Made by a program: the position numbers and the translations under genes. A stretch of DNA of 64,000 bases from Escherichia coli (lineage in GTDB: Bacteria; Pseudomonadota; Gammaproteobacteria; Enterobacterales; Enterobacteriaceae): assembly GCF_009931435.1 (NCBI RefSeq), contig NZ_CP043414.1. One strand, written 5' to 3'. The first letter of the stretch is position 1, and the number at the start of each line of letters is the position of its first letter. Shown one piece after another: positions 9,759 to 19,668 of this stretch. The notes below the pieces were generated by a model. It was not told the origin of the DNA and did no database searches. It saw only the letters and a list, made by a program, of their open reading frames with translations.

Positions 9759-10330
9759 TGAAAATAATCGACATAAAGGCGATGAAATACCTGGAAGACG
9801 GGTCTGTTTCCTGTGAAGTGTTGTTTGGAGGGCGGGCTGATTATATTCCTTATCGTGCAGTGGAAAATGATTCTGCTGCATCAGGCCAGCGGGTATGGGG
9901 AACACTGATGAGCGGTGAGTTTGGTGAAATCATCCCCTTCACTGTAACAGCAGAGATGCTGGACAAAGAAAAAGAACTGAAAAAAGAGGAAATCAGGCGC
10001 TGGCGAACAGAACAGGAGGCGCAGCCGTTCACATTCGAATGGAACAGCAGCACATGGAATGGAGGAAAATCCTCACTGGAACGCTTATTCCCGGCAGTGA
10101 TGGCAGCAAAATCTGGTGTGGCACACAATGCCACAGTATGGAGTGATGCAAATAACCAACAAATTAAATTGTCACAACAAAAGCTGGAAGAACTACTTAC
10201 GGCAATGGTGCAGGCTCAGGCTGCACGCAACGATGAGATTTACCTGCGCCAGCGTGAGATGAAAAACACGCTGGCCACACTGAATAACATTGCTGCAATT
10301 AGGGCATTTCAGGTGGGCAAAGCAGAATGA
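9758..10330 (+). CDS. tail fibre assembly chaperone for fibre 2
   Basis: 190 aa starting MKIIDIKAMKY; ATG overlaps fibre 2 stop; coiled-coil-like C-terminus. Confidence 0.5.
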   Translation: MKIIDIKAMKYLEDGSVSCEVLFGGRADYIPYRAVENDSAASGQRVWGTLMSGEFGEIIPFTVTAEMLDKEKELKKEEIRRWRTEQEAQPFTFEWNSSTWNGGKSSLERLFPAVMAAKSGVAHNATVWSDANNQQIKLSQQKLEELLTAMVQAQAARNDEIYLRQREMKNTLATLNNIAAIRAFQVGKAE

Positions 10331-11040
10331 AATGGAAAGAGGTAATTTTACGTCCGTCTGCCATAAACATTAAATGTTCTGTGGTTTGTCTTCATCCGTG
10401 GTCAGAAAATACCGGAAACATCAAACCATCGGGGCGTTATCTCAGCCCCGAAAATGCTGTATCTGCACTTTTACCCTACCTGAAAGAAAGCACAGAAAAA
10501 GACATTGTGGCGCTGTTGTTTTGCGCTCCTTCTGCTGGCGAGTTTTTATCACTCGCCAGGCAATTTTCAGGCGCATTTCCATTGCCAGAGGTGGGGCGAA
10601 TGTCCCGCATGATTTCCAGTCAACTTTCACTGGCCATCAGCAGAATGCAAATCCCCGCCAGACCGGCAACATCACTTCCGGAACCGATAATGCTGTCGAC
10701 ACAGACCACTCGCAGCATGTCGCTGGCAGCAACCATTGCACAGGCAGCCACTCCTGCCGCCACATCACCGGAAACATTGTCATCATCGCTGCATCAGTTC
10801 ATGAATGCGAGAGATAAAGCCTTACAGGAAATCGCTGATCAGCAGGCCGCACTCCGGCAAAAAGTTTGCCCGGTGTGGCGCTTTTGCTACAAGGGAGCCC
10901 TTAGCCAGGCTGCAGTGCTGATACAAAAAAACATCCCACACCCCGAGTGGGTTTTTACAGCTGTGATGCTGTTCGTCGGCGATAATCTCTCATCACTAAG
11001 GGAAGCACTACATGACCCAGATGATTGTCCTTGCGCTTGA
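10327..11040 (+). CDS. hypothetical protein (Ser/Thr/Ala-rich)
   Basis: 237-aa ORF, ATGA-coupled to the upstream gene; no family recognised. Confidence 0.4.
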   Translation: MKWKEVILRPSAINIKCSVVCLHPWSENTGNIKPSGRYLSPENAVSALLPYLKESTEKDIVALLFCAPSAGEFLSLARQFSGAFPLPEVGRMSRMISSQLSLAISRMQIPARPATSLPEPIMLSTQTTRSMSLAATIAQAATPAATSPETLSSSLHQFMNARDKALQEIADQQAALRQKVCPVWRFCYKGALSQAAVLIQKNIPHPEWVFTAVMLFVGDNLSSLREALHDPDDCPCA

Positions 11041-11587
11041 CGGGGAAGCCATTCTGCTGCGTAACATCACCGTCAGCGCCACCATGCAACTACCGGACAA
11101 AGATATGTCCGGACAGTCAACCAGCACCACGAGCGCCCAGCAGGGAAACAAGGCTAAAGAGCTGCGCGTGTCGGGGGTTATTGATTTTAACGATGAAGCT
11201 ATTCTGACCCGTATTTTTCAGCTTGCGGAGGCAACAGAAAGCAACGGTGCTAAAAAAACATATCGCATTGCTAACGCTACCGCGAAGGCAATCAATATGC
11301 GACAGGGGGTGTTTTCTGGTGGCATTGATGCCACGGAACAACAGGGAAAAATGCACTGGCAGATCACCTTTACTCTCAGGGAAAAATTAAGCGTGCCAGA
11401 GAAAGCATCCGCACGCAGCGGTTCGCAGAAAACCATCGCCAGACAGCAGACCCAGAATGGCAGCGAACAGGTACCAGACAAAGGCATGAATACGCAAAGT
11501 TCGTTCTGGAAAAAAATCAATGATGCCGTTGGCTCTGGTCTGGATGCTGTTGGCATCGGGAGCGTGAAAGAGGAAGGGAAAACATGA
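11012..11587 (+). CDS. tail protein, possibly gpU-like
   Basis: 191 aa; segment LRVSGVIDFND...MHWQITFTLRE loosely resembles the P2 gpU family as I recall it; immediately 5' of a hub-like gene, matching P2 U-D order. Confidence 0.35.
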   Translation: MTQMIVLALDGEAILLRNITVSATMQLPDKDMSGQSTSTTSAQQGNKAKELRVSGVIDFNDEAILTRIFQLAEATESNGAKKTYRIANATAKAINMRQGVFSGGIDATEQQGKMHWQITFTLREKLSVPEKASARSGSQKTIARQQTQNGSEQVPDKGMNTQSSFWKKINDAVGSGLDAVGIGSVKEEGKT

Positions 11588-13281
11588 AATTGATACAACG
11601 CTGCATGATTAATGGCGAACGGGTGGAAATTGCCGATATAAGCCTTGTTCTTACCCTGAATGCTGCCGGTCGTGGCTTCATTTCTGTTAACAATCTGTCA
11701 CCCGAACACAGCCTTGCCGGCGCAATGGTACAAATTGATCTCGGCCGTGACGGTGAAGCATGGCGCTATTTCTCCGGCTACATTGAGCGCGATCAACCTG
11801 CTGAAAATGGCTCACGTCGCCTTTTTATTCGTGAAGCGGCTGCTGTGCTGGATTTTGATTTCCCTTGCTCCATGCAACACCCGACGTTGCGGGGGGTACT
11901 CGATAATCTGGGGCGACAAAGCGGTATCGTTTTTATCACTCCGGATGCGGATTATGCCAGTATACCAACTCCCTACATCACCCACAGCGGCAGCGGAGCA
12001 CAACTGCTCAGCCAACTGGGGCGAGCATTCAGTATCAGCGATTACGTCTGGCACCCTATGCCGGACGGTTCTGTATTTGTGGGAAGCGCAGCTGATTCAC
12101 GATTTGCCAGTATTACAATGCCGGATATTCCGCAACAGTACACACTCGGGCAAAGCGGCGGAAACAGCATCGACATCATGTTTATGGAAACTGTGCGACC
12201 GGGCGTGAACCTACCGGCCGGGCGCATTACCCGTGTAGCCCTCAACAACGAGAAAATGACCCTGACATGGGAGCGCCTTACCGCCACGGGTACCCCTGTT
12301 TCCAAATCACCATTACGCAGACAAATGGAAACACAGTTCCCAGAACTGGCCAGCGGTACGCTACATACCCGGCTGGCGCGCGTCATTGCGCCAACGGAGC
12401 CCACCACCCTGGGCGACGTGGCCGACAGTTTCCGCCCACGCTACGCCGTCGATGTGCAGTTGCTTGATGAGAACGGCAACGATAAAAGCGACACGCCCGT
12501 TTACCCGGCAGTACCGCTCCCCGTCCCCATGGCTGGCAGTGAGGCGGGATGTTTTGCCTACCCACCGGCAGGCACCATCGTGGAAATATCCAACATTGAA
12601 GGACGTCCGGACAAACCCGTTATCAGGCAAATCTTACCCGCTGGCCATAACCTGCCTGATGTAAAGCCCGGCGAACAGCTGCAGCAACAGCGCGCAGAAG
12701 TGTTTCAGCGCGTCACGACTGACGGAAGCTGGCACAGAGAAACCGATCAGCAAATCAGGGAGCATTCAGCCAGACGAACCATTAACAGCGATCAGGAAGA
12801 ACGCACAACAACAACCAGAACAACAACAGTACAGGCAAACGACATAACCAGCGTTCTGGGAACCAGCAAGCTGATGACAGGCCAGACAGAACACATTACT
12901 ACTGGTCATTATGCGATCGCAGCCGGTGAGCATATCCAGATGGTAGCGCAGGATTTGCTGACTAAACTCAAAGGGGCGACATCCACGATTGAGCGCGACC
13001 TTACTGAAAACGTGGGAGGCCGCAGAACATGCCGGGCGGACGGTGGTCTGGAGTTTACAGCCCCGACAGTATTTATTGGTCGCGGTGGCTCACGGGAAAA
13101 ATCCGGACTTAATCTGCTGACGTTGTTGATTGATATTCTGGATCTGGTTCAGTTGCTGGCCACACACACTGCAAACCACACCCACAGCAACACCGGCGCA
13201 CCAACAAACAACAGCGAACTTGCCGCAGACGCCAAACAGGCTACGAGCCTGCGCGAAAAATACGGTGACCTTATCGCCTGA
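11584..13281 (+). CDS. baseplate hub protein, gpD/gp27/VgrG-like
   Basis: 565 aa; N-terminal pattern ...ISLVLTLNAAGRGF...AMVQIDLGRDGEAWRYFSGYIER is typical of Phage_GPD/VgrG N-domains; Thr-rich stretch EERTTTTRTTTVQ; last gene of the tail operon. Confidence 0.5.
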   Translation: MKLIQRCMINGERVEIADISLVLTLNAAGRGFISVNNLSPEHSLAGAMVQIDLGRDGEAWRYFSGYIERDQPAENGSRRLFIREAAAVLDFDFPCSMQHPTLRGVLDNLGRQSGIVFITPDADYASIPTPYITHSGSGAQLLSQLGRAFSISDYVWHPMPDGSVFVGSAADSRFASITMPDIPQQYTLGQSGGNSIDIMFMETVRPGVNLPAGRITRVALNNEKMTLTWERLTATGTPVSKSPLRRQMETQFPELASGTLHTRLARVIAPTEPTTLGDVADSFRPRYAVDVQLLDENGNDKSDTPVYPAVPLPVPMAGSEAGCFAYPPAGTIVEISNIEGRPDKPVIRQILPAGHNLPDVKPGEQLQQQRAEVFQRVTTDGSWHRETDQQIREHSARRTINSDQEERTTTTRTTTVQANDITSVLGTSKLMTGQTEHITTGHYAIAAGEHIQMVAQDLLTKLKGATSTIERDLTENVGGRRTCRADGGLEFTAPTVFIGRGGSREKSGLNLLTLLIDILDLVQLLATHTANHTHSNTGAPTNNSELAADAKQATSLREKYGDLIA

Positions 13282-13880
13282 TCACCGGGCATACCCCCCC
13301 ATAAACGCCCATCACGCAACGCACGGCTCCGGTCGTGCGTTTTCATATCTGCCACCTGATTAATGCGTTCTGCGTGCCATTCTGGCGCTGTATGCGCACA
13401 CCGCGTAAACGGTGTGACGTAAAGCGTGAGGTGACGTAAACCGCGCTACCCCCTCCAACCCGCGGGTTTCGTGTCGAAACAGTTTTTCAGTTTTCTGCCG
13501 TGCAAAAATGACCGCCAGCCCGCGCAGCAACTGAGGGAAAAGCGAAGATCTGAAATTTCACGCTTTGAAATTTTTTGCAGTTTTCAAAGTGGTTTTTACG
13601 ATCGCACAAATGGCCGGAGCAATAAAACCGCATGATATTAAAAGAGTTTTCATACTTTACGCGAGACAAAAAAACGATCACGAAAGGATCGCATCAAACA
13701 GCCATCAAACAAAGAAGGCAGACACGGCGCGGCCTGCACAAAATTAAGCTCCAAAATAAAACTGAAAAAAAGGATCGCAACAAGAAGAAAAGCGCGTAAA
13801 ACGATCGCTGCTGATGTGGCGTTTCTTTATACAAGCTGCTATTTGCGATATGCTGAACACATCAACCTGTGGAGTGCATT

Positions 13881-14507
13881 ATGAAACGAAAATCAAAGTC
13901 TGCTGCCATTGCTGCTATTACTACAGCTCTGACAGCATCACTGGCTCCGGTGCCAGCTAAAAGCACGATACTACCAACAACAGTTATTGAATCCGCGACA
14001 CACGCCAGAGTGGTTTCAATGCTTACATTTGAGCATCATGATGGTCAGGTGTTTCTGCCTCTCGAAGAAGCTATTGAATATATCAACGGGCTGAATGACA
14101 ACATGCGCGCCGCGCTCAATGCAGTCATTGAAGAACGACAGAACAGAGGCAAGGGAGCACTGTTTACTGACAAAACCGCAAAAATCATAAAAATATGCGA
14201 AGAGTCAATTAAGCAGCACACCCGTGTTAAAGAGGCTGTCAAAATTGTAATGGATCCGGATAACCTGGCAAAAATGTATCCGGATAGCCTGGAGCAAAGA
14301 ATCGCCTATCGCAATAAACTGGTTCGTTTTGGTCGGGCAATTGCGCAGGGAGAGTTTATCGCTCGTGATGCCATCAACACCATCAAACGAAGCACCGCAC
14401 CAGACAAAACAACCAGCCTGGGCAATACGCTGTCTGACGGAAATGTGAAAGCAATGATTATTGCCGAGCATAAAAACATGGGACTCCCGGCACCGGAGTT
14501 TTCCTGA
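13881..14507 (+). CDS. hypothetical secreted protein (signal peptide)
   Basis: MKRKSKSAAIAAITTALTASLA-PVP has an n-region, h-region and A-x-A site; about 208 aa; stop overlaps the next ATG (TGATG). Confidence 0.5.
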   Translation: MKRKSKSAAIAAITTALTASLAPVPAKSTILPTTVIESATHARVVSMLTFEHHDGQVFLPLEEAIEYINGLNDNMRAALNAVIEERQNRGKGALFTDKTAKIIKICEESIKQHTRVKEAVKIVMDPDNLAKMYPDSLEQRIAYRNKLVRFGRAIAQGEFIARDAINTIKRSTAPDKTTSLGNTLSDGNVKAMIIAEHKNMGLPAPEFS

Positions 14508-14887
14508 TGGCAAGCAAAGTAAGCATTCATAAAGATGTTGAATACCAGGACATTGCAAAAGTTTACGGAAAGGCTCTGGAAAACTGGTTAAATACCGGTG
14601 TTCTCCCTGACAGATTCGGCAATGAAGGGCAGTGGGAAGATAACGCAAGATTATGTGGTTCGTTTGTATATAAATTACACATAAGACTACCGTCAGAACC
14701 ACCATGGAAGAAAAGCAAAGCCCAAATAGACAGAACTTCAAATATCTATCTGGTTTATACAAGGCACTGGATGGATTATGACAATATACAAATCATCAGC
14801 ATCATGGCCCCAGATGCTCACGAAAAAGCCAAAACTTCTTTCATGGCTGAACTGGAAAGACGGGCTGAAGAATTCCAGAACTCATAA
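14507..14887 (+). CDS. YafO-like toxin family protein
   Basis: 126 aa; GVLPDRFG, KLHIRL, IYLVYTRHW and a C-terminal AE..RRAEEF line up with E. coli YafO as recalled from memory (GVLPDTFG, HIHL, HLVY...). Confidence 0.5.
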   Translation: MASKVSIHKDVEYQDIAKVYGKALENWLNTGVLPDRFGNEGQWEDNARLCGSFVYKLHIRLPSEPPWKKSKAQIDRTSNIYLVYTRHWMDYDNIQIISIMAPDAHEKAKTSFMAELERRAEEFQNS

Positions 14888-14906
14888 ATTGCCTGATTTT
14901 CTCTCA

Positions 14907-14940
14907 GAAACCCGCAGCGTAAAAACTGTGGGTTTTCTTT
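14907..14940 (+). terminator. rho-independent terminator after the YafO-like gene
   Basis: gaaacccgcag...ctgtgggttt hairpin followed by TTTTTC. Confidence 0.5.
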
Positions 14941-15178
14941 TTGCTACCCTGATACGTGAGGGTAGCACTCAAAGTGAGGCAATATGTAGGCAACCTATTT
15001 AATACGTAAAAATTAATGCATTAAATGGATATTTACTAGCATGGGTACTGGCTTAAAATATCACAACCCTGTTTTATAACGTACTGAATTTATTAGGTGT
15101 GACGGTTTTCCAATGGGGCTTCCGACATTACGTTCAGCTGATGCTTTTCTTATGTAACGAGAAGACATATATTGGTAA

Positions 15179-15234
15179 GCGATGAAGCGATGAAGCGATG
15201 AAGCGATGAAGCGATGAAGCGATGAAGCGATGTA
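15179..15234. repeat. 8-bp tandem repeat (GCGATGAA) x6 plus one variant copy (GCGATGTA)
   Basis: Read directly: six perfect head-to-tail units then one variant, about 95 bp upstream of the ATPase gene start. Confidence 0.95.
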
Positions 15235-15251
15235 ACGTCTGTTTGGTTATA

Positions 15252-15296
15252 AACTTCACACTAATAATTTCTAAATGAAATTATTAGTGTGAAGTT
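15252..15296. promoter_or_regulatory. perfect 20-bp-arm inverted repeat (candidate operator or RNA hairpin) upstream of the ATPase gene
   Basis: aacttcacactaataatttc (15252-15271) / gaaattattagtgtgaagtt (15277-15296), 5-nt loop; 33 bp before the ATG at 15330. Confidence 0.6.
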
Positions 15297-15329
15297 GATG
15301 TTTATTGTGATTATAACTAAGGAATTAAA

Positions 15330-16799
15330 ATGAAATTATCTCCAGCAGAATTGAAGTTAGAAAGGGGTAAGGTTCAAGATAATAAATTCAATCAATATGT
15401 TAAACGTATCACATTAAAAAATGTCAGAGGGTTTGATGAGGAAATTGTGGAGTTTAAAACACCAGTTACAGCTCTTATCGGGACTAATGGTGGAGGGAAG
15501 TCGACTATATTAGGTGCTGTAGCTCTCGCTTATAAAAATGTTAAGCCAAGCAAGTTTTTCCCTAAATCATTTTATGGGGATGATTCAATGAGTGATTGGG
15601 AAATTGGATTCGAATTGATTGACAAGCCTATTTCAAAAGATAAAAATATTAACAGGACTGCAAAATTTAAACAGATGAAATGGCGCAGAGATAATTTCCC
15701 AGAGCGAAATGTTGTATATGTAGAAATACAAAGAACTGTTCCTGCAGGCGAACTAACTAAGTTTAATAAATTTTTATCTGGCGATGCTAAACAATTTGAA
15801 GAAAAAAATCTCAACCCTGAGACAATAAAATATTGCTCTGCCGTTTTAGATAAAAAGATAGAAGATTACAGATGTATAATAAATAAGCACGATCCATCTT
15901 CAAGAATGTTTGTAGGTAAGGCAATTAATGGTTCTGGTTATTCTCAGTTCCATTTTGGTGCAGGTGAAGCATCAATAATAGATACTATTGATAGAATAGA
16001 GACTGCTGCTGATAATTCTCTTGTTTTAATTGAAGAAATTGAAAATGGACTGCATCCTGTTGCAGTGCGGTTGTTTGTTAACTATTTGACAAATGTAGCA
16101 AAGAGGAAAAAGCTGCAAATAATATTTACAACACATTCGCAGGATGCAGTAAACGAGCTAGAGCCAGAAGCTGTTTGGGCTTCTATTAACAAAAAAGTAT
16201 GGAATGGTAAACTAAGTATTGAAAGTTTACGCGCTATAACGGGACAGAAGATAAATTCGAAAGTTATATATGTTGAAGATTCTTTTGCAAAAGAGTGGGT
16301 TGAAAATGCGATGGATCGATATATTCCAGAACTAGCCTCAACAATAAAAGTCTACACGGCAGGTGGTTACCCCAGCGTGGTTAAAGTAAGTCAATATCAT
16401 AATGAGAACCCTACTATAAATTATCCATCAATCGCATTAGTTGATGGGGATATTAAAGGTAGACCCGGAACTAAAGATCTGCCTGATAATGCAATGTTCA
16501 TCGGGGATGATTATCCTGACGCTACGGTTTTTCATTATATTGCAAATAACATAGAAGAAAATGCCTCAGTTTTGAGGCAAAGATGTTTGTTAACAAGATT
16601 TGACGCTGAAAAGATTAAATCGGAAGTTGAGAGTGTGATGCATTCTGCATGTGATCACCATGTTTATTTTACTAGATTAAGTGATAAATTAGATTTTGCC
16701 TCAGAACTATTCATTCGAGCTGGTATGATAGATTTATTTAATGAGAAAAATCCAGAATTTTGGTCCCCAATTATGGACTTCATTAAAAAAGGTCTATAG
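15330..16799 (+). CDS. ABC-type ATPase fused to a Toprim/DUF4435-like domain (OLD-family or fused-PARIS-like candidate defence nuclease)
   Basis: 489 aa; Walker A GTNGGGKST (K57), signature-like SGYSQFHFGAGEAS, Walker B LVLIEE (E235/E236), H-loop FTTHS; C-terminal VIYVED (E316) and ALVDGD (D372/D374) fit Toprim Glu and DxD; strongly AT-rich; own RBS and terminator. Confidence 0.6.
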   Translation: MKLSPAELKLERGKVQDNKFNQYVKRITLKNVRGFDEEIVEFKTPVTALIGTNGGGKSTILGAVALAYKNVKPSKFFPKSFYGDDSMSDWEIGFELIDKPISKDKNINRTAKFKQMKWRRDNFPERNVVYVEIQRTVPAGELTKFNKFLSGDAKQFEEKNLNPETIKYCSAVLDKKIEDYRCIINKHDPSSRMFVGKAINGSGYSQFHFGAGEASIIDTIDRIETAADNSLVLIEEIENGLHPVAVRLFVNYLTNVAKRKKLQIIFTTHSQDAVNELEPEAVWASINKKVWNGKLSIESLRAITGQKINSKVIYVEDSFAKEWVENAMDRYIPELASTIKVYTAGGYPSVVKVSQYHNENPTINYPSIALVDGDIKGRPGTKDLPDNAMFIGDDYPDATVFHYIANNIEENASVLRQRCLLTRFDAEKIKSEVESVMHSACDHHVYFTRLSDKLDFASELFIRAGMIDLFNEKNPEFWSPIMDFIKKGL

Positions 16800-16865
16800 T
16801 AATAATGCAAAAATATAATATTTAGTTTGCGATTTATATTTTTCATAATGAATTGTTGAGAAAAT

Positions 16866-16900
16866 AAGAGAGCATCGAAAATTGAGGCTCTCTTATTTTT
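16866..16900 (+). terminator. rho-independent terminator of the ATPase gene
   Basis: aagagagc (16866-16873) / gctctctt (16887-16894) stem followed by ATTTTT. Confidence 0.6.
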
Positions 16901-17082
16901 ATGAGATATCTCTAATGTATTAATCGTTTTATTTTGGTGCTACCACCACTGATGCTAACTTGTCGATCAGACATTCGCACTATTCAATATCTTTTAGGCT
17001 CCGCAATGAAAACGCCCCCGAAGGAACAATCCCCCGTCAATCGGTTGCCAAAGGCCATTTAGGTAAATCGCCTTCGAGGTCG

Positions 17083-17346
17083 TTCGATGGCTGCATGACG
17101 TTCCCGGTTATCCCGTCAAAGAAAATGCACTCGACCGGAAAACCAGAAGAACTAATGGCGGAGTTGGTCAGGACTGCGAATAGTGGCGGAACAGTCCTTG
17201 ATCCTTTTATGGGGCCAGGGACAACGGGTGTGGCTGCACTGAAAGCAGGGCGAAAATTTATTGGTATAGAGACCAGTGATCATTATTTTGAAGTAGCAGC
17301 ACAGCGACTTCGGGGGACTATTACCACAACCATTTCGACTACATAA
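17083..17346 (+). pseudogene. C-terminal fragment of a beta-class N6A/N4C DNA methyltransferase
   Basis: ...HSTGKPEELMAELVRTANSGGTVLDPFMGPGTTGVAALKAGRKFIGIETSDHYFEVAAQRL matches the AdoMet-binding FxGxG end of N6_N4 MTases; no DPPY-containing N-terminal part upstream. Confidence 0.6.
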
Positions 17347-17446
17347 GACAAAGCCCGCATTTTTGCGGGCTTGTATATCATTAGTGATGTGGACAGTTTG
17401 TGGATGTTTACAAGAAATAAGCTAATAGAAACAATTTGTTATCTTT

Positions 17447-17474
17447 ACAAAAAACGCGCCCGAAGGCGCGTTGG
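17447..17474 (-). terminator. raiA terminator
   Basis: aaaaaacgcgcc-cgaa-ggcgcgtt hairpin 3' of raiA (minus strand), T-run on the transcribed strand. Confidence 0.6.
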
Positions 17475-17495
17475 CGATACACTCAATATAAAGGA

Positions 17496-17891
<396 letters not shown>

Positions 17892-18028
17892 TCAAAATGT
17901 GTGATGGAAATCTCATAATTTTGTCACTTTTTGTCAACGAATCTTTTTTGTGAGAAATCGCAGGAAGAGGTGTTTTTTTACTTGAGGAATATCTCAAAGC
18001 GAGCCATATTTGATGAGATCGATAGTGA

Positions 18029-18808
18029 CTAAATCGCTTCAGTTTCACAACTAACAGAATAAAAAAACGGCAGCTCAAGGCTGTAATGCCAGTCAGTTAA
18101 GCAACTGACTGGCTCTTTTTCGGGGCTGTGGGGTATTTCCAGGGCCTCTCCTTTACCACTCTCGGGAAGGCCCTTTCCCTTCTTGTCGGTAATTTCACTG
18201 GCTGTCCCATACTTGCAAGATCGCGCATCAGCTCCGGTATACGTCCCGGTGAAGCGCATGGCGTCCGTCATCGACGTCAGCAGATGGCTGGTCAGTTCCA
18301 TCTGGCAGACCATTTTGACCTGCGGGTAGAGCGCCGGGTTCCCGGCATGTGTCTGGCGGGGGAAGGCTGCATCGTTCTCTGGTGTATCCGGTGTGCGCCA
18401 GAACACACCATCGATGGCCAGCAGGGTCAGGCTGCACCAGTGCGGATGCAGCGTGGCGTTATGCCAGAGCTGCGCTGTTTTCGTGAACACGCGGCGGACA
18501 GCCTCACTTCCCAGGCGCTGGCGGGCCTGAATAACGGCACTGGGGGCAACGAAGGGGCGATTGCCCGGCAGCATGATGTCCAGGCGATTCACAATCTGGT
18601 GAAGAGGTTCTTTACGCTCAAGCGCCATGCCAACAATACACCAGACCATCATTTCGAGGGGAAGACGGCGCTTGCGTAGCGTTACAGTACCTGATTCGGC
18701 AAGGCAACGAGAGATGAGTTCGGGGTCGAGGTAATCCCCCAGAAAAGTCAGTGGGTTACGCAGAGAATCGTAACGGGATACCAAATCAAGGGCCTGTCCA
18801 ATGAGCAT
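18029..18808 (-). pseudogene. IS4 transposase (InsG-like), internal deletion with frameshifted C-terminus
   Basis: First about 178 aa (MLIGQALDLVSRYDSLRNPLTFLGDYLDPELISRCLAESG...QVKMVCQMELTSHLLT) match IS4 transposase as I recall it; then the frame jumps to out-of-frame 3'-end sequence. Confidence 0.65.
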
Positions 18809-18892
18809 AAAAAAATCCGGAAACGAGTGAGCGTTTCCGGATTCTTACACAGCCACTGAATCGGTCAACTGATCCTTAACTGATCGGCATTA
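18084..18892 (-). mobile_element. IS4, internally deleted copy with terminal inverted repeats and target-site duplication
   Basis: Ends TAATGCCAGTCAGTTAAG (18084-) and CTTAACTGATCGGCATTA (-18892); flanking direct repeat cagctcaagg(g)ctg at 18071-18083 and 18893-18906; about 0.8 kb versus about 1.4 kb for intact IS4 (from memory). Confidence 0.7.
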
Positions 18893-18930
18893 CAGCTCAA
18901 GGGCTGCCGTTTTTTTATTTCAATCTTCTG

Positions 18931-19668
18931 TTATGTATTGCTGCTGTTAGCAGCGATAATCTTCGCTACCTTTTCAGCTTGCGCATTCATCTGCATCTGA
19001 CGGTATGCATTTTCCATCAGCGGCAGCGCATCACGCGTAGCCTGGGTATCCGGATAGTCGCGCAACATGCCTTCTACGCGGTTAACGACAGCAACCCATG
19101 CACCACGTTCTGTATAATACTCGGCAACGGAGTATTCATATTTCGCCAGACGATCTTTCAGGAATACCAGACGTTTGGTGGCATCGGTGGTGTACTGACT
19201 GTTCGGATAGCCGCGCACCAGTTTGGAAAAGTCACTAAACGCAGCTCGTGCATGTTGAGGATCGCGATCGCTACGGTCAACGCCAAAGAACCCTTGCAGC
19301 GCACTGTCATCCAGCGCCATATTGGTCAGGCCACGCATGTACATGACATAATCGATATTCGGATGGGTCGGGTTAAGGCGAATAAAACGATCGATGGCAG
19401 CCTGTGCTAACGGCAAATCGGCGTTTTTATAGTAGGCGTAGATGAGATCCAGCTGCACCTGCTGCGAATACGGACCAAACGGATAGCGATTATCTAACGC
19501 TTCCAGTTGCGTTATTGCCTGTCTCCAGTTACCGTCCTGCAGCTTTTGTTGTGCAGTCGCGTAAATTTCATTTGGCGGATTATCAGGTACTTCTTCCTTT
19601 GACCCCGAGCAACCCGCCAAAAACAGGCTTAGTGTGGCGGCTGCCACCAGATATTTCATGCGCGTCAT
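18931..19668 (-). CDS. bamD: outer membrane protein assembly factor BamD
   Basis: 245 aa lipoprotein, signal + lipobox LAGCSG, TPR-like; recognised as E. coli BamD/YfiO. Confidence 0.95.

What the first reader, a model, noticed from the sequence alone, without database searches (positions are those of the whole stretch)
17083..17346. Methyltransferase remnant next to the defence gene: decayed companion or former restriction-modification module
Only the C-terminal AdoMet-binding part (VLDPFMGPGTTGVAALKAGRKFIGIE) of a beta-class DNA methyltransferase remains, with no catalytic DPPY region upstream. It ends at a hairpin about 150 bp from raiA. The adjacent AT-rich ATPase gene begins about 1.7 kb upstream, which suggests serial replacement of defence cargo at one hotspot, leaving this fragment behind.
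Basis: partly seen in the sequence, partly recalled or inferred. Interest (0 to 1): 0.4.

Follow-up and report, generated by a model that had tools for sequence, protein, structure and literature searches.

The report
Truncated phage methyltransferase gene stub
This is the dead last third of a phage DNA methyltransferase gene, sitting at the edge of a P2-family prophage next to raiA, and it was cut off when a defence gene was swapped into the phage's cargo slot, which is an ordinary and already annotated kind of scar.

Summary
Window 17049-17346 encodes the last 98 codons of a 268-aa beta-class N6/N4 DNA methyltransferase. The DPPY motif, the start codon and the upstream Com regulator are all missing. 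NCBI's pipeline already marks the identical locus as a pseudogene.

The stub is not a chromosomal relic and not a former restriction-modification module. It is the attP-proximal edge of a P2-family prophage integrated into the raiA/raiZ terminator (27-bp core, 17447-17473). Intact homologues in E. coli prophages and in phage Chuche sit at the same position as hok-(variable)-Com-MTase-attP-int. None has a restriction enzyme beside it.

The 5' two-thirds of the gene and com are absent, and a 2.1-kb AT-rich cassette carrying a HEC-04 (ABC ATPase-TOPRIM) defence gene lies in their place. The same breakpoint occurs in 16 of 5426 complete E. coli genomes, on two different phage backbones, so it arose once and then spread.

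The 250-bp spacer holds two more scraps: 28 codons of another gene, and a copy of the hok 3' flank. The stub and spacer diverge several times faster than the ATPase gene, and conserved motif residues have changed.

"Serial cargo replacement" is therefore supported. "Companion" and "R-M remnant" are not. This is ordinary and of low interest.

The parts
17049..17346 (+). 3' remnant (last 98 codons plus stop) of a Com-coupled beta-class N6/N4 DNA methyltransferase gene of a P2-family phage. It carries motif I (FMGPGTT) and an HSTGKP motif. It lacks motif IV (DPPY), a start codon, a ribosome-binding site and com.
   Evidence: Pfam PF01555 positions 160-220/221 only. A sharp homology boundary with the intact gene at 17049. 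tblastn 92% identity to residues 170-259. PGAP pseudogene call in the 99.6%-identical locus.
17351..17372 (.). G+C-rich hairpin directly after the methyltransferase stop codon. It is the gene's own terminator, kept with the stub.
   Evidence: Terminator scan. It is conserved in loci with the intact gene.
17347..17446 (.). Phage DNA between the stub and the att core, i.e. one arm of attP. It contains two direct TGTGGA repeats 11 bp apart (17388-17393 and 17399-17404). A similar pair lies in the other arm next to int in strain 7_33_46A.
   Evidence: K-12 homology ends at 17447. attL/attR comparison. That the repeats are integrase arm sites is my inference.
17447..17473 (.). 27-bp att core, ACAAAAAACGCGCCCGAAGGCGCGTTG. 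It is the raiA/raiZ Rho-independent terminator, and it is rebuilt at both prophage ends.
   Evidence: Repeated at the pheL-side junction in L004. There is a single copy in the window. raiZ ends here in K-12.
16800..17048 (.). Patchwork spacer made of three pieces: the ATPase terminator (about 16865-16900); a 28-codon C-terminal scrap of a minus-strand gene with an internal stop (16923-17006); and a 43-bp copy of the hok 3' flank (17008-17050) that is joined directly to the methyltransferase breakpoint.
   Evidence: tblastn 17/28 identities to the C-terminus of L005 5116-5502(-), and blastn to the hok 3' flank. The spacer is found only in the 16 genomes that carry the stub.
15330..16799 (+). 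HEC-04-type ABC ATPase-TOPRIM single-gene anti-phage defence gene (489 aa, AT-rich). This is the cargo that occupies the place of com and the 5' two-thirds of the methyltransferase gene.
   Evidence: PADLOC HEC-04 at E=6e-204 over the full length. Pfam AAA_15/AAA_21. Published single-gene activity. In complete E. coli genomes it is always followed by the stub.
14907..14971 (+). Terminator-like double hairpin that forms the left boundary of the swapped cassette. It is shared with loci that carry Com-MTase instead.
   Evidence: 83-90% matches to L002 8186-8249 and L007 5710-5751. Terminator scan.
13869..14887 (+). A second cargo module: a 212-aa hypothetical protein plus a YafO-family toxin. It sits where related prophages carry hok.
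   Evidence: Pfam YafO_toxin at 1.1e-27. The module occurs alone at other loci. The same backbone carries hok instead in L005.
17496..17837 (-). raiA, the chromosomal gene flanking the prophage's right end.
   Evidence: Annotation of homologous loci.

Best explanation
The stub is a non-functional pseudogene. It is the last 98 codons of an orphan, Com-regulated N6/N4 DNA methyltransferase that P2-family phages carry as cargo between their last late gene (ogr or a baseplate gene) and attP.

The window's prophage is integrated into the raiA/raiZ terminator, so the stub lies about 100 bp from attR.

In one ancestral phage, com and the first ~170 codons were lost at an illegitimate junction with at most 2-3 nt of microhomology, which fused codon 171 to a copy of the hok 3' flank. 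A 2.1-kb foreign cassette carrying the HEC-04 ATPase-nuclease defence gene now fills the slot.

The resulting unit, [terminator L - HEC-04 - scraps - stub - attP - int - early genes], later moved by homologous recombination onto a second phage backbone with unrelated late genes, and it spread among E. coli strains.

The stub does nothing itself. It probably persists because it lies between a selected cargo gene and the recombination arm of attP, where further deletion risks damaging integration or excision, and because it forms part of the homologous flank through which cargo is exchanged.

Shown: truncation; a single shared breakpoint; phage origin; absence of a restriction partner; faster divergence than the neighbouring gene. 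Inferred: the order of the events; the reason the stub is retained; that the stub is not expressed.
For: Location and origin
- Intact 268-aa homologues with an upstream, overlapping Com zinc-ribbon ORF sit at the same position next to raiA in strains CFS3292 and RIVM_C037134, and next to attP-int in phage Chuche.
- Homology to these begins sharply at 17049 and runs through attR into raiA.
- The att core is the raiA terminator, duplicated at the pheL side next to int. The window holds only one core copy.

A single event that spread
- The same breakpoint and the same spacer occur in a classical P2-like prophage (ST69, L006) and in the window's hybrid backbone.
- Only 16 of 5426 complete genomes carry this junction, against 150 that carry the 3' part of the gene.
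- The window-type prophage and the P2-like CFS3292 prophage share int-to-ParM at 94-97% and the stub-attR piece at 97.7%. Their late regions share no detectable DNA similarity.

The ATPase stands alone
- It is HEC-04, active as a single gene.
- Its homologues lie in the P2 gpA-portal hotspot or in chromosomal islands, without this methyltransferase.

Decay
- Remnant-lineage changes hit conserved motifs: HPTGKP to HSTGKP and FMGSGTT to FMGPGTT.
- A sister copy with the same breakpoint (L016) still has the ancestral residues, so these changes happened after truncation.
- Against L016, the stub plus spacer differ at 23 of 547 sites, while the ATPase gene differs at 10 of 1470.
Against: - All 16 complete-genome copies lie at the same chromosomal site, so mobility of the stub with the phage is inferred from the shared blocks and was not observed directly.
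- No sequenced virion genome carries the ATPase-stub junction.
- The counts of non-synonymous against synonymous changes are too small to be significant on their own: 4:3 fixed differences on the remnant side, against 4:14 among intact genes.
- The order of the scraps (minus-strand gene end, then hok flank) cannot be derived from any arrangement I observed by simple deletion. The exact history is unresolved.
- Gene callers do predict an 83-aa ATG-started product from the stub in many draft genomes, and I could not test expression.
Confidence: 0.87

Rival explanations
1. Remnant of a restriction-modification module, or a decayed methylase partner of the neighbouring ATPase defence gene. Under this view the methylase once protected the host from a cognate nuclease.
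For: The intact protein matches PADLOC 'MTase_II' models best. HEC systems were first noticed embedded in methylase-containing Hma systems. The ATPase has a TOPRIM nuclease domain.
Against: In three intact contexts the neighbours are Com, hok, a TM2 protein or a 128-aa hypothetical with no family hits, and none is a restriction enzyme. About 134 genomes carry the 3' part of the gene without the ATPase junction, and in complete E. coli genomes the ATPase occurs only beside the truncated form. ATPase homologues elsewhere have no such neighbour. HEC-04 defends as a single gene.
Confidence: 0.03
2. A chromosomal scar. An older P2-like prophage decayed in place, leaving only its last 300 bp beside raiA, and a different phage later integrated next to it. 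The stub would then be host DNA rather than part of the present prophage.
For: All copies of the junction lie at the raiA site. The present prophage's late genes are unrelated to those of classical P2-like prophages at this site.
Against: Integration beside an old scar should leave an extra att core and arm between the new prophage and the stub, but the window has a single core. The stub is contiguous with an attP arm and, across attP, with an int-early block shared between the backbones. The identical junction lies behind two different backbones, which is easier to explain by recombination between phages than by two integrations next to one scar.
Confidence: 0.06
3. The stub is kept because it functions. 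Either it is made as a small AdoMet-binding protein (83 aa from the ATG at 17095), or it acts as cis DNA, extending the attP arm or insulating raiA/raiZ from phage transcription.
For: An 83-aa ORF is called in many assemblies, with 65 variants in the cluster. The stub's own terminator is retained. The stub has survived in diverse strains.
Against: I see no Shine-Dalgarno sequence before either internal ATG (sequence). The catalytic motif and the target-recognition region are gone. There are many amino-acid variants, including changes at motif residues. The stub diverges faster than the adjacent ATPase gene. The promoter scan finds nothing upstream of the stub.
Confidence: 0.04

Closest known systems
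Com + N6/N4 DNA methylase cassettes of P2-like phages (Burkholderia phage KS5 gp21/gp20, PMC3091744; Stenotrophomonas phage Smp131; Escherichia phage Chuche PP925824)
   Same: The intact homologue is 97% identical to the Chuche gene and 46% identical to the Smp131 gene. It has the same small Com zinc-ribbon ORF immediately upstream. In Chuche the cassette also sits between hok and attP-int.
   Different: In the window only the last 98 codons remain. Com, the start codon and the catalytic half are gone. In KS5 the cassette lies among the tail genes, not at attP.
Phage Mu com-mom (a translational activator plus a DNA-modification gene)
   Same: The gene order is the same, and the Com ORF overlaps the start of the modification gene in the intact loci (56 nt in L002). 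The Pfam match is Zn_ribbon_Com, described as 'Mu-like prophage protein Com'.
   Different: The modification enzyme here is a PF01555 methyltransferase, not Mom. Regulation by Com is assumed by analogy and was not tested.
[quoted passage not shown]
   Same: The stub lies in the tail/ogr-attP-int-CI interval. Cargo there differs between otherwise near-identical phages. Small pseudogene scraps in such loci have been reported.
   Different: The 2026 study reports that defence genes are usually swapped without leaving pseudogenes. Here the scar is from a methyltransferase that likely protects the phage's own DNA, i.e. a counter-defence rather than a defence gene, and three scraps are stacked within 550 bp.
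HEC-04 / IbfA ABC ATPase-TOPRIM single-gene defence (bioRxiv 10.1101/2024.01.29.577857; PMC12111858)
   Same: The neighbouring 489-aa gene matches the HEC-04 model end to end.
   Different: This describes the neighbour, not the finding itself. No functional link to the methyltransferase was found.
Type II restriction-modification systems with beta-class methylases
   Same: The methylase fold and motif order are the same.
   Different: No restriction enzyme is present in any intact locus I examined.

Membership tests
Beta-class N6/N4 DNA methyltransferase (Pfam PF01555) | Catalytic motif IV (DPPY/DPPF) in the N-terminal half | tested here: not met
   It is absent from the stub and from the whole window. 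It is present as DPPY at residues 51-54 of the intact homologue.
Beta-class N6/N4 DNA methyltransferase (Pfam PF01555) | AdoMet-binding motif I (FxGxG) in the C-terminal part | tested here: met
   The stub has FMGPGTT. All intact genes examined have FMGSGTT.
Beta-class N6/N4 DNA methyltransferase (Pfam PF01555) | Full-length domain match | tested here: not met
   Only profile positions 160-220 of 221 are matched.
Type II restriction-modification module | A restriction endonuclease gene adjacent to the methylase in intact loci | tested here: not met
   The neighbours in L002, L005 and L007 are Com, hok, a TM2 protein and a 128-aa hypothetical with no Pfam, PADLOC or NCBIfam hits.
Com-coupled phage orphan methyltransferase | A Com zinc-ribbon ORF directly upstream of, and overlapping, the methylase start | tested here: not met
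   This is met in the intact homologues (PF10122 at 9.5e-12; overlap 8492-8547 in L002). In the window it is deleted, with no Com anywhere. The stub therefore descends from this family but is no longer a working member.
Cargo hotspot of P2-family prophages (tail/ogr-attP interval) | Located between the last late gene and the att site of a prophage that has P2-type int, cox, gpA, portal and capsid genes | tested here: met
   The full prophage in the 99.6%-identical strain runs from int next to pheL to the stub next to raiA. The att core was identified.
Cargo hotspot of P2-family prophages (tail/ogr-attP interval) | Different cargo between conserved flanks in related elements | tested here: met
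   Five arrangements were seen: hok-TM2-Com-MTase; hok-hypothetical-Com-MTase; hok-Com-MTase; hok-HEC-04-stub; YafO module-HEC-04-stub. There is also an IS66-disrupted copy.
Pseudogene (non-functional remnant) | Loss of the start codon and catalytic region, and relaxed constraint relative to neighbouring genes | tested here: met
   Truncation at codon ~171. Divergence from L016 is 3.7% in the stub and 4.8% in the spacer, against 0.7% in the ATPase gene. Motif residues changed after the truncation. Expression itself was not testable.
HEC-04 defence system (the neighbouring gene) | [quoted passage not shown] | tested here: met
   PADLOC PDLC04149 at E=6e-204, residues 2-488 on profile positions 5-488 of 494. 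Anti-phage activity of this allele was not testable.

The most novel reading that the evidence does not exclude
The stub is not just debris. It may be a retained cis element: an outward extension of the attP arm, or a transcriptional insulator whose terminator shields raiA/raiZ from read-through out of the defence cargo. Alternatively its 83-aa AdoMet-binding fragment may be expressed and may modulate methylation or SAM-dependent defence. Under either reading, cargo swaps at this hotspot would be forced to stop at codon 171.
Probability: 0.04. Interest if true: 0.35.

Novelty: already known. Interest (0 to 1): 0.1.

Why it matters
It matters little in itself. It is a clean worked example of how cargo is exchanged at the attP-proximal hotspot of P2-family phages. 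A methyltransferase that likely protects the phage's own DNA was displaced by a single-gene defence system (HEC-04). The junction was made once and then carried onto a second phage backbone by recombination through shared flanks. The stacked scraps record at least three rearrangements. This is a small counter-example to the reported rule that swaps in P2 hotspots leave few recognisable pseudogenes. It also warns annotators that the 83-aa 'site-specific DNA-methyltransferase' entries in many E. coli drafts are fragments.

Tried and rejected
- A scan of genome contigs with peptide patterns from the ATPase found no confirmed relative. I used the protein search and contig look-ups instead.
- A megablast of the ATPase-stub region against 50,697 phage records found nothing, so no sequenced virion carries this junction.
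- An Rfam search of 13000-19000 gave only two matches far below threshold, MicC-like and BSnc120. I rejected both as chance.
- A pattern search for the paired TGTGGA repeats was mis-spaced and found nothing. The repeats are reported from direct reading only.
- A distant-mode search for other contexts of the 149-bp spacer found only the 16 junction-bearing genomes and no intermediate states.
- I considered whether the ORF 16960-17346 could be an intact gene with a new N-terminus. I rejected this because the extension consists of scraps, starts with TTG, and is absent from the protein collection.
- I considered tandem-prophage decay. I rejected it because the window has only one att core.
- Counts of non-synonymous against synonymous changes were too small to give a significant test on their own.

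Full report
**1. Where we are.** The window is E. coli chromosome. Compared with K-12 it has the order clpB-yfiH-rluD-bamD-raiA. Homology to K-12 stops at window 17447, exactly at the end of the raiA 3' sRNA raiZ; in K-12 pheL follows. Everything to the left of 17447 is inserted DNA.

In strain 7_33_46A, which is 99.6% identical to window 7816-18083, the insertion is a ~40.5-kb prophage that runs from a tyrosine integrase next to pheL to the stub next to raiA. It has P2-type int, C, cox, gpA, portal, terminase, scaffold and capsid genes, but a different tail module.

The att core is the 27-bp raiA/raiZ terminator, ACAAAAAACGCGCCCGAAGGCGCGTTG (window 17447-17473). It is repeated at the pheL-side junction and occurs once in the window.

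**2. The observation.** The + strand ORF 16960-17346 contains the quoted peptide. It matches Pfam N6_N4_Mtase at E=1.7e-18, but only the last 60 profile positions.

An intact 268-aa homologue (WP_000215751.1) lies at the same place next to raiA in strain CFS3292. It has DPPY at residues 51-54 and FMGSGTT near residue 224, which is the beta-class order.

DNA alignment shows unrelated sequence up to window 17048. From 17049 there is 96-98% identity through the stop codon, the hairpin (17351-17372), the attP arm and attR, into raiA. The remnant is therefore codons ~171-268.

No other part of the gene, no com and no hok exist in the window. PGAP already labels the locus 'DNA methyltransferase, incomplete, missing N-terminus'. 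The 83-aa ATG-started piece is deposited many times as 'site-specific DNA-methyltransferase'.

**3. What the intact gene is.** In three intact contexts a small Com zinc-ribbon ORF (PF10122, E=9.5e-12) precedes the gene and overlaps its start. The gene is the last one before the att site.

- CFS3292: D-ogr-hok-TM2-Com-MTase-attR.
- RIVM_C037134, which has the same tail type as the window: baseplate-hok-(minus-strand 128-aa gene)-Com-MTase-attR.
- Isolated phage Chuche: ogr-hok-Com-MTase-attP-int-C-cox.

No restriction enzyme is nearby. Com-plus-N4/N6-methylase cassettes are already described in P2-like phages of Burkholderia (PMC3091744) and are annotated in Smp131. By analogy with Mu com-mom, which is established knowledge and was not tested here, Com probably controls translation of the methylase. 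A phage-borne orphan methylase is generally taken to protect phage DNA from host restriction.

**4. What replaced it.** In the window the slot holds a 2.1-kb cassette of 33-37% GC. On the left it is bounded by a terminator-like double hairpin (14907-14971), which in CFS3292 and Chuche lies just upstream of com.

The cassette's gene (15330-16799) matches PADLOC HEC-04 over its full length (E=6e-204). HEC-04 is an ABC ATPase fused to a TOPRIM nuclease. It protects E. coli against T4, T5 and other coliphages as a single gene, and it is related to IbfA.

I looked at three homologues that are 76-78% identical. One lies in the classical P2 gpA-portal hotspot. The others lie in a chromosomal region and in a defence island. 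None has this methyltransferase beside it. The 'companion' idea is therefore not supported.

**5. One event, then spread.** Of 5426 complete E. coli genomes, 150 carry the 3' 300 bp. Only 16 carry it joined to the ATPase spacer.

In complete genomes the ATPase gene is always followed by the stub. The breakpoint is identical in a classical P2-like prophage (ST69: D-ogr-hok-HEC-04-stub) and in the window's hybrid backbone (YafO module-HEC-04-stub).

The window-type prophage and the CFS3292 P2-like prophage share the int-to-ParM early block at 94-97% identity and the stub-attR piece at 97.7%. Their late regions share nothing detectable at the DNA level. In the circular phage genome, stub-attP-int-early genes form one contiguous shared block. 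The stub is thus best read as the edge of a phage module that moves by homologous recombination. It is not best read as a piece left behind in the chromosome.

**6. More scraps.** The 250-bp spacer (16800-17048) contains three pieces:

- the ATPase terminator;
- a 28-codon scrap on the minus strand (16923-17006), 61% identical to the C-terminus of the 128-aa gene seen in RIVM_C037134, with an internal stop;
- a 43-bp copy of the sequence that follows hok (17008-17050), whose last bases are fused to methylase codon 171 with at most 2-3 nt of microhomology.

ST69 also keeps the normal hok flank copy upstream, so that sequence is duplicated there. The order of the scraps cannot be produced from any observed arrangement by one deletion. 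At least three junctions are stacked here.

Another strain shows an independent way of killing the same gene, by IS66 insertion.

**7. Is the stub decaying?** Remnant copies share G->R and P->S changes near the breakpoint. Most also carry HPTGKP->HSTGKP and FMGSGTT->FMGPGTT.

A sister copy with the same breakpoint (L016) still has the ancestral P and S and carries its own changes (L->P, A->V, T->I). The motif changes therefore arose after the truncation.

Against L016, the stub and spacer differ from the window at 23 of 547 sites, while the ATPase gene differs at 10 of 1470. Against ST69 the figures are 8 of 547 and 6 of 1470.

The counts of non-synonymous against synonymous changes (4:3 fixed on the remnant side, 4:14 among intact genes) point the same way, but they are too small to stand alone. 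I see no Shine-Dalgarno sequence before either internal ATG, and the scan finds no promoter-like site just upstream of the stub.

**8. Why it persists (inference).** The 100 bp between the stub and the att core hold paired TGTGGA repeats, like those in the other arm next to int. I take these to be integrase arm sites. Deletions or swaps that reached further right would damage attP, so the stub is tolerated buffer DNA and part of the right-hand homology used in cargo exchange.

**9. [quoted passage not shown] Rapid cargo swapping and small pseudogene scraps in P2 and P4 hotspots have already been described.

The finding is real, correctly read as a truncated beta-class methylase, and correctly linked to cargo turnover. 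It is a phage cargo scar, not an R-M relic or a decayed partner of the ATPase. It is already annotated. Interest is low.

Noticed in passing
window 18084-18892: An 809-bp internally deleted IS4 copy is inserted in the hairpin between bamD and raiA. It has both terminal inverted repeats (TAATGCC...), an N-terminal transposase fragment (Pfam Nterm_IS4), and a ~13-bp target duplication. The insertion is absent from K-12 and from strains 7_33_46A and CFS3292. Only one complete genome (2020CK-00188) matches the query, which spans both junctions, end to end at 100%.
   Followed up: partly
window 15179-15226 and 15252-15296: An 8-bp tandem repeat (GCGATGAA) lies about 100 bp upstream of the HEC-04 gene. 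It has 6 copies here and 8 in strains 7_33_46A and ST69. A 20-bp-stem inverted repeat follows it, directly before the start codon. Variable repeat number in a defence gene's leader could change its expression. This was not tested.
   Followed up: partly
window 17447-17473: The prophage att core is the Rho-independent terminator of raiA and of the 3'-derived sRNA RaiZ. Integration rebuilds the terminator on both sides, so raiA/raiZ should stay intact. However, pheL-pheA ends up about 40 kb away from raiA.
   Followed up: partly
window 13869-14887: A YafO-family toxin gene is preceded by a 212-aa protein with no Pfam, NCBIfam or PADLOC family. It is presumably an unusual antitoxin, since YafN is much smaller. 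The pair also occurs alone at other chromosomal sites in E. coli. Here it sits where sister prophages carry hok.
   Followed up: partly
window 13282-13776: A ~495-bp stretch with no annotated gene lies downstream of the last baseplate gene. It is conserved at 90-96% in many prophages of this tail type, whatever cargo follows. Its function is unknown, and Rfam gave no match.
   Followed up: no
L005 5116-5502 (minus strand); scrap at window 16923-17006: A 128-aa cargo protein (WP_192514684.1) lies between hok and Com in strain RIVM_C037134. It has no hit in Pfam, NCBIfam or PADLOC. Only its last 28 codons survive in the window.
   Followed up: partly
L013 (GCA_018966785.1) 2592-6252: In another E. 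coli strain the same Com-methyltransferase gene next to raiA is interrupted by an IS66-family element. This is an independent inactivation of the gene at the same locus.
   Followed up: no
L004 (NZ_CP074819.1) 22314-45060; window 1-13281: The window's prophage is a mosaic. It combines P2-type early, head and packaging genes with a tail and baseplate module (DUF2586 sheath-like protein, two tail-fibre genes, 565-aa baseplate protein phrog_2258) that shares no detectable DNA similarity with the tail module of the classical P2-like prophage at the same att site. Its ogr-like gene sits next to the portal gene.
   Followed up: partly
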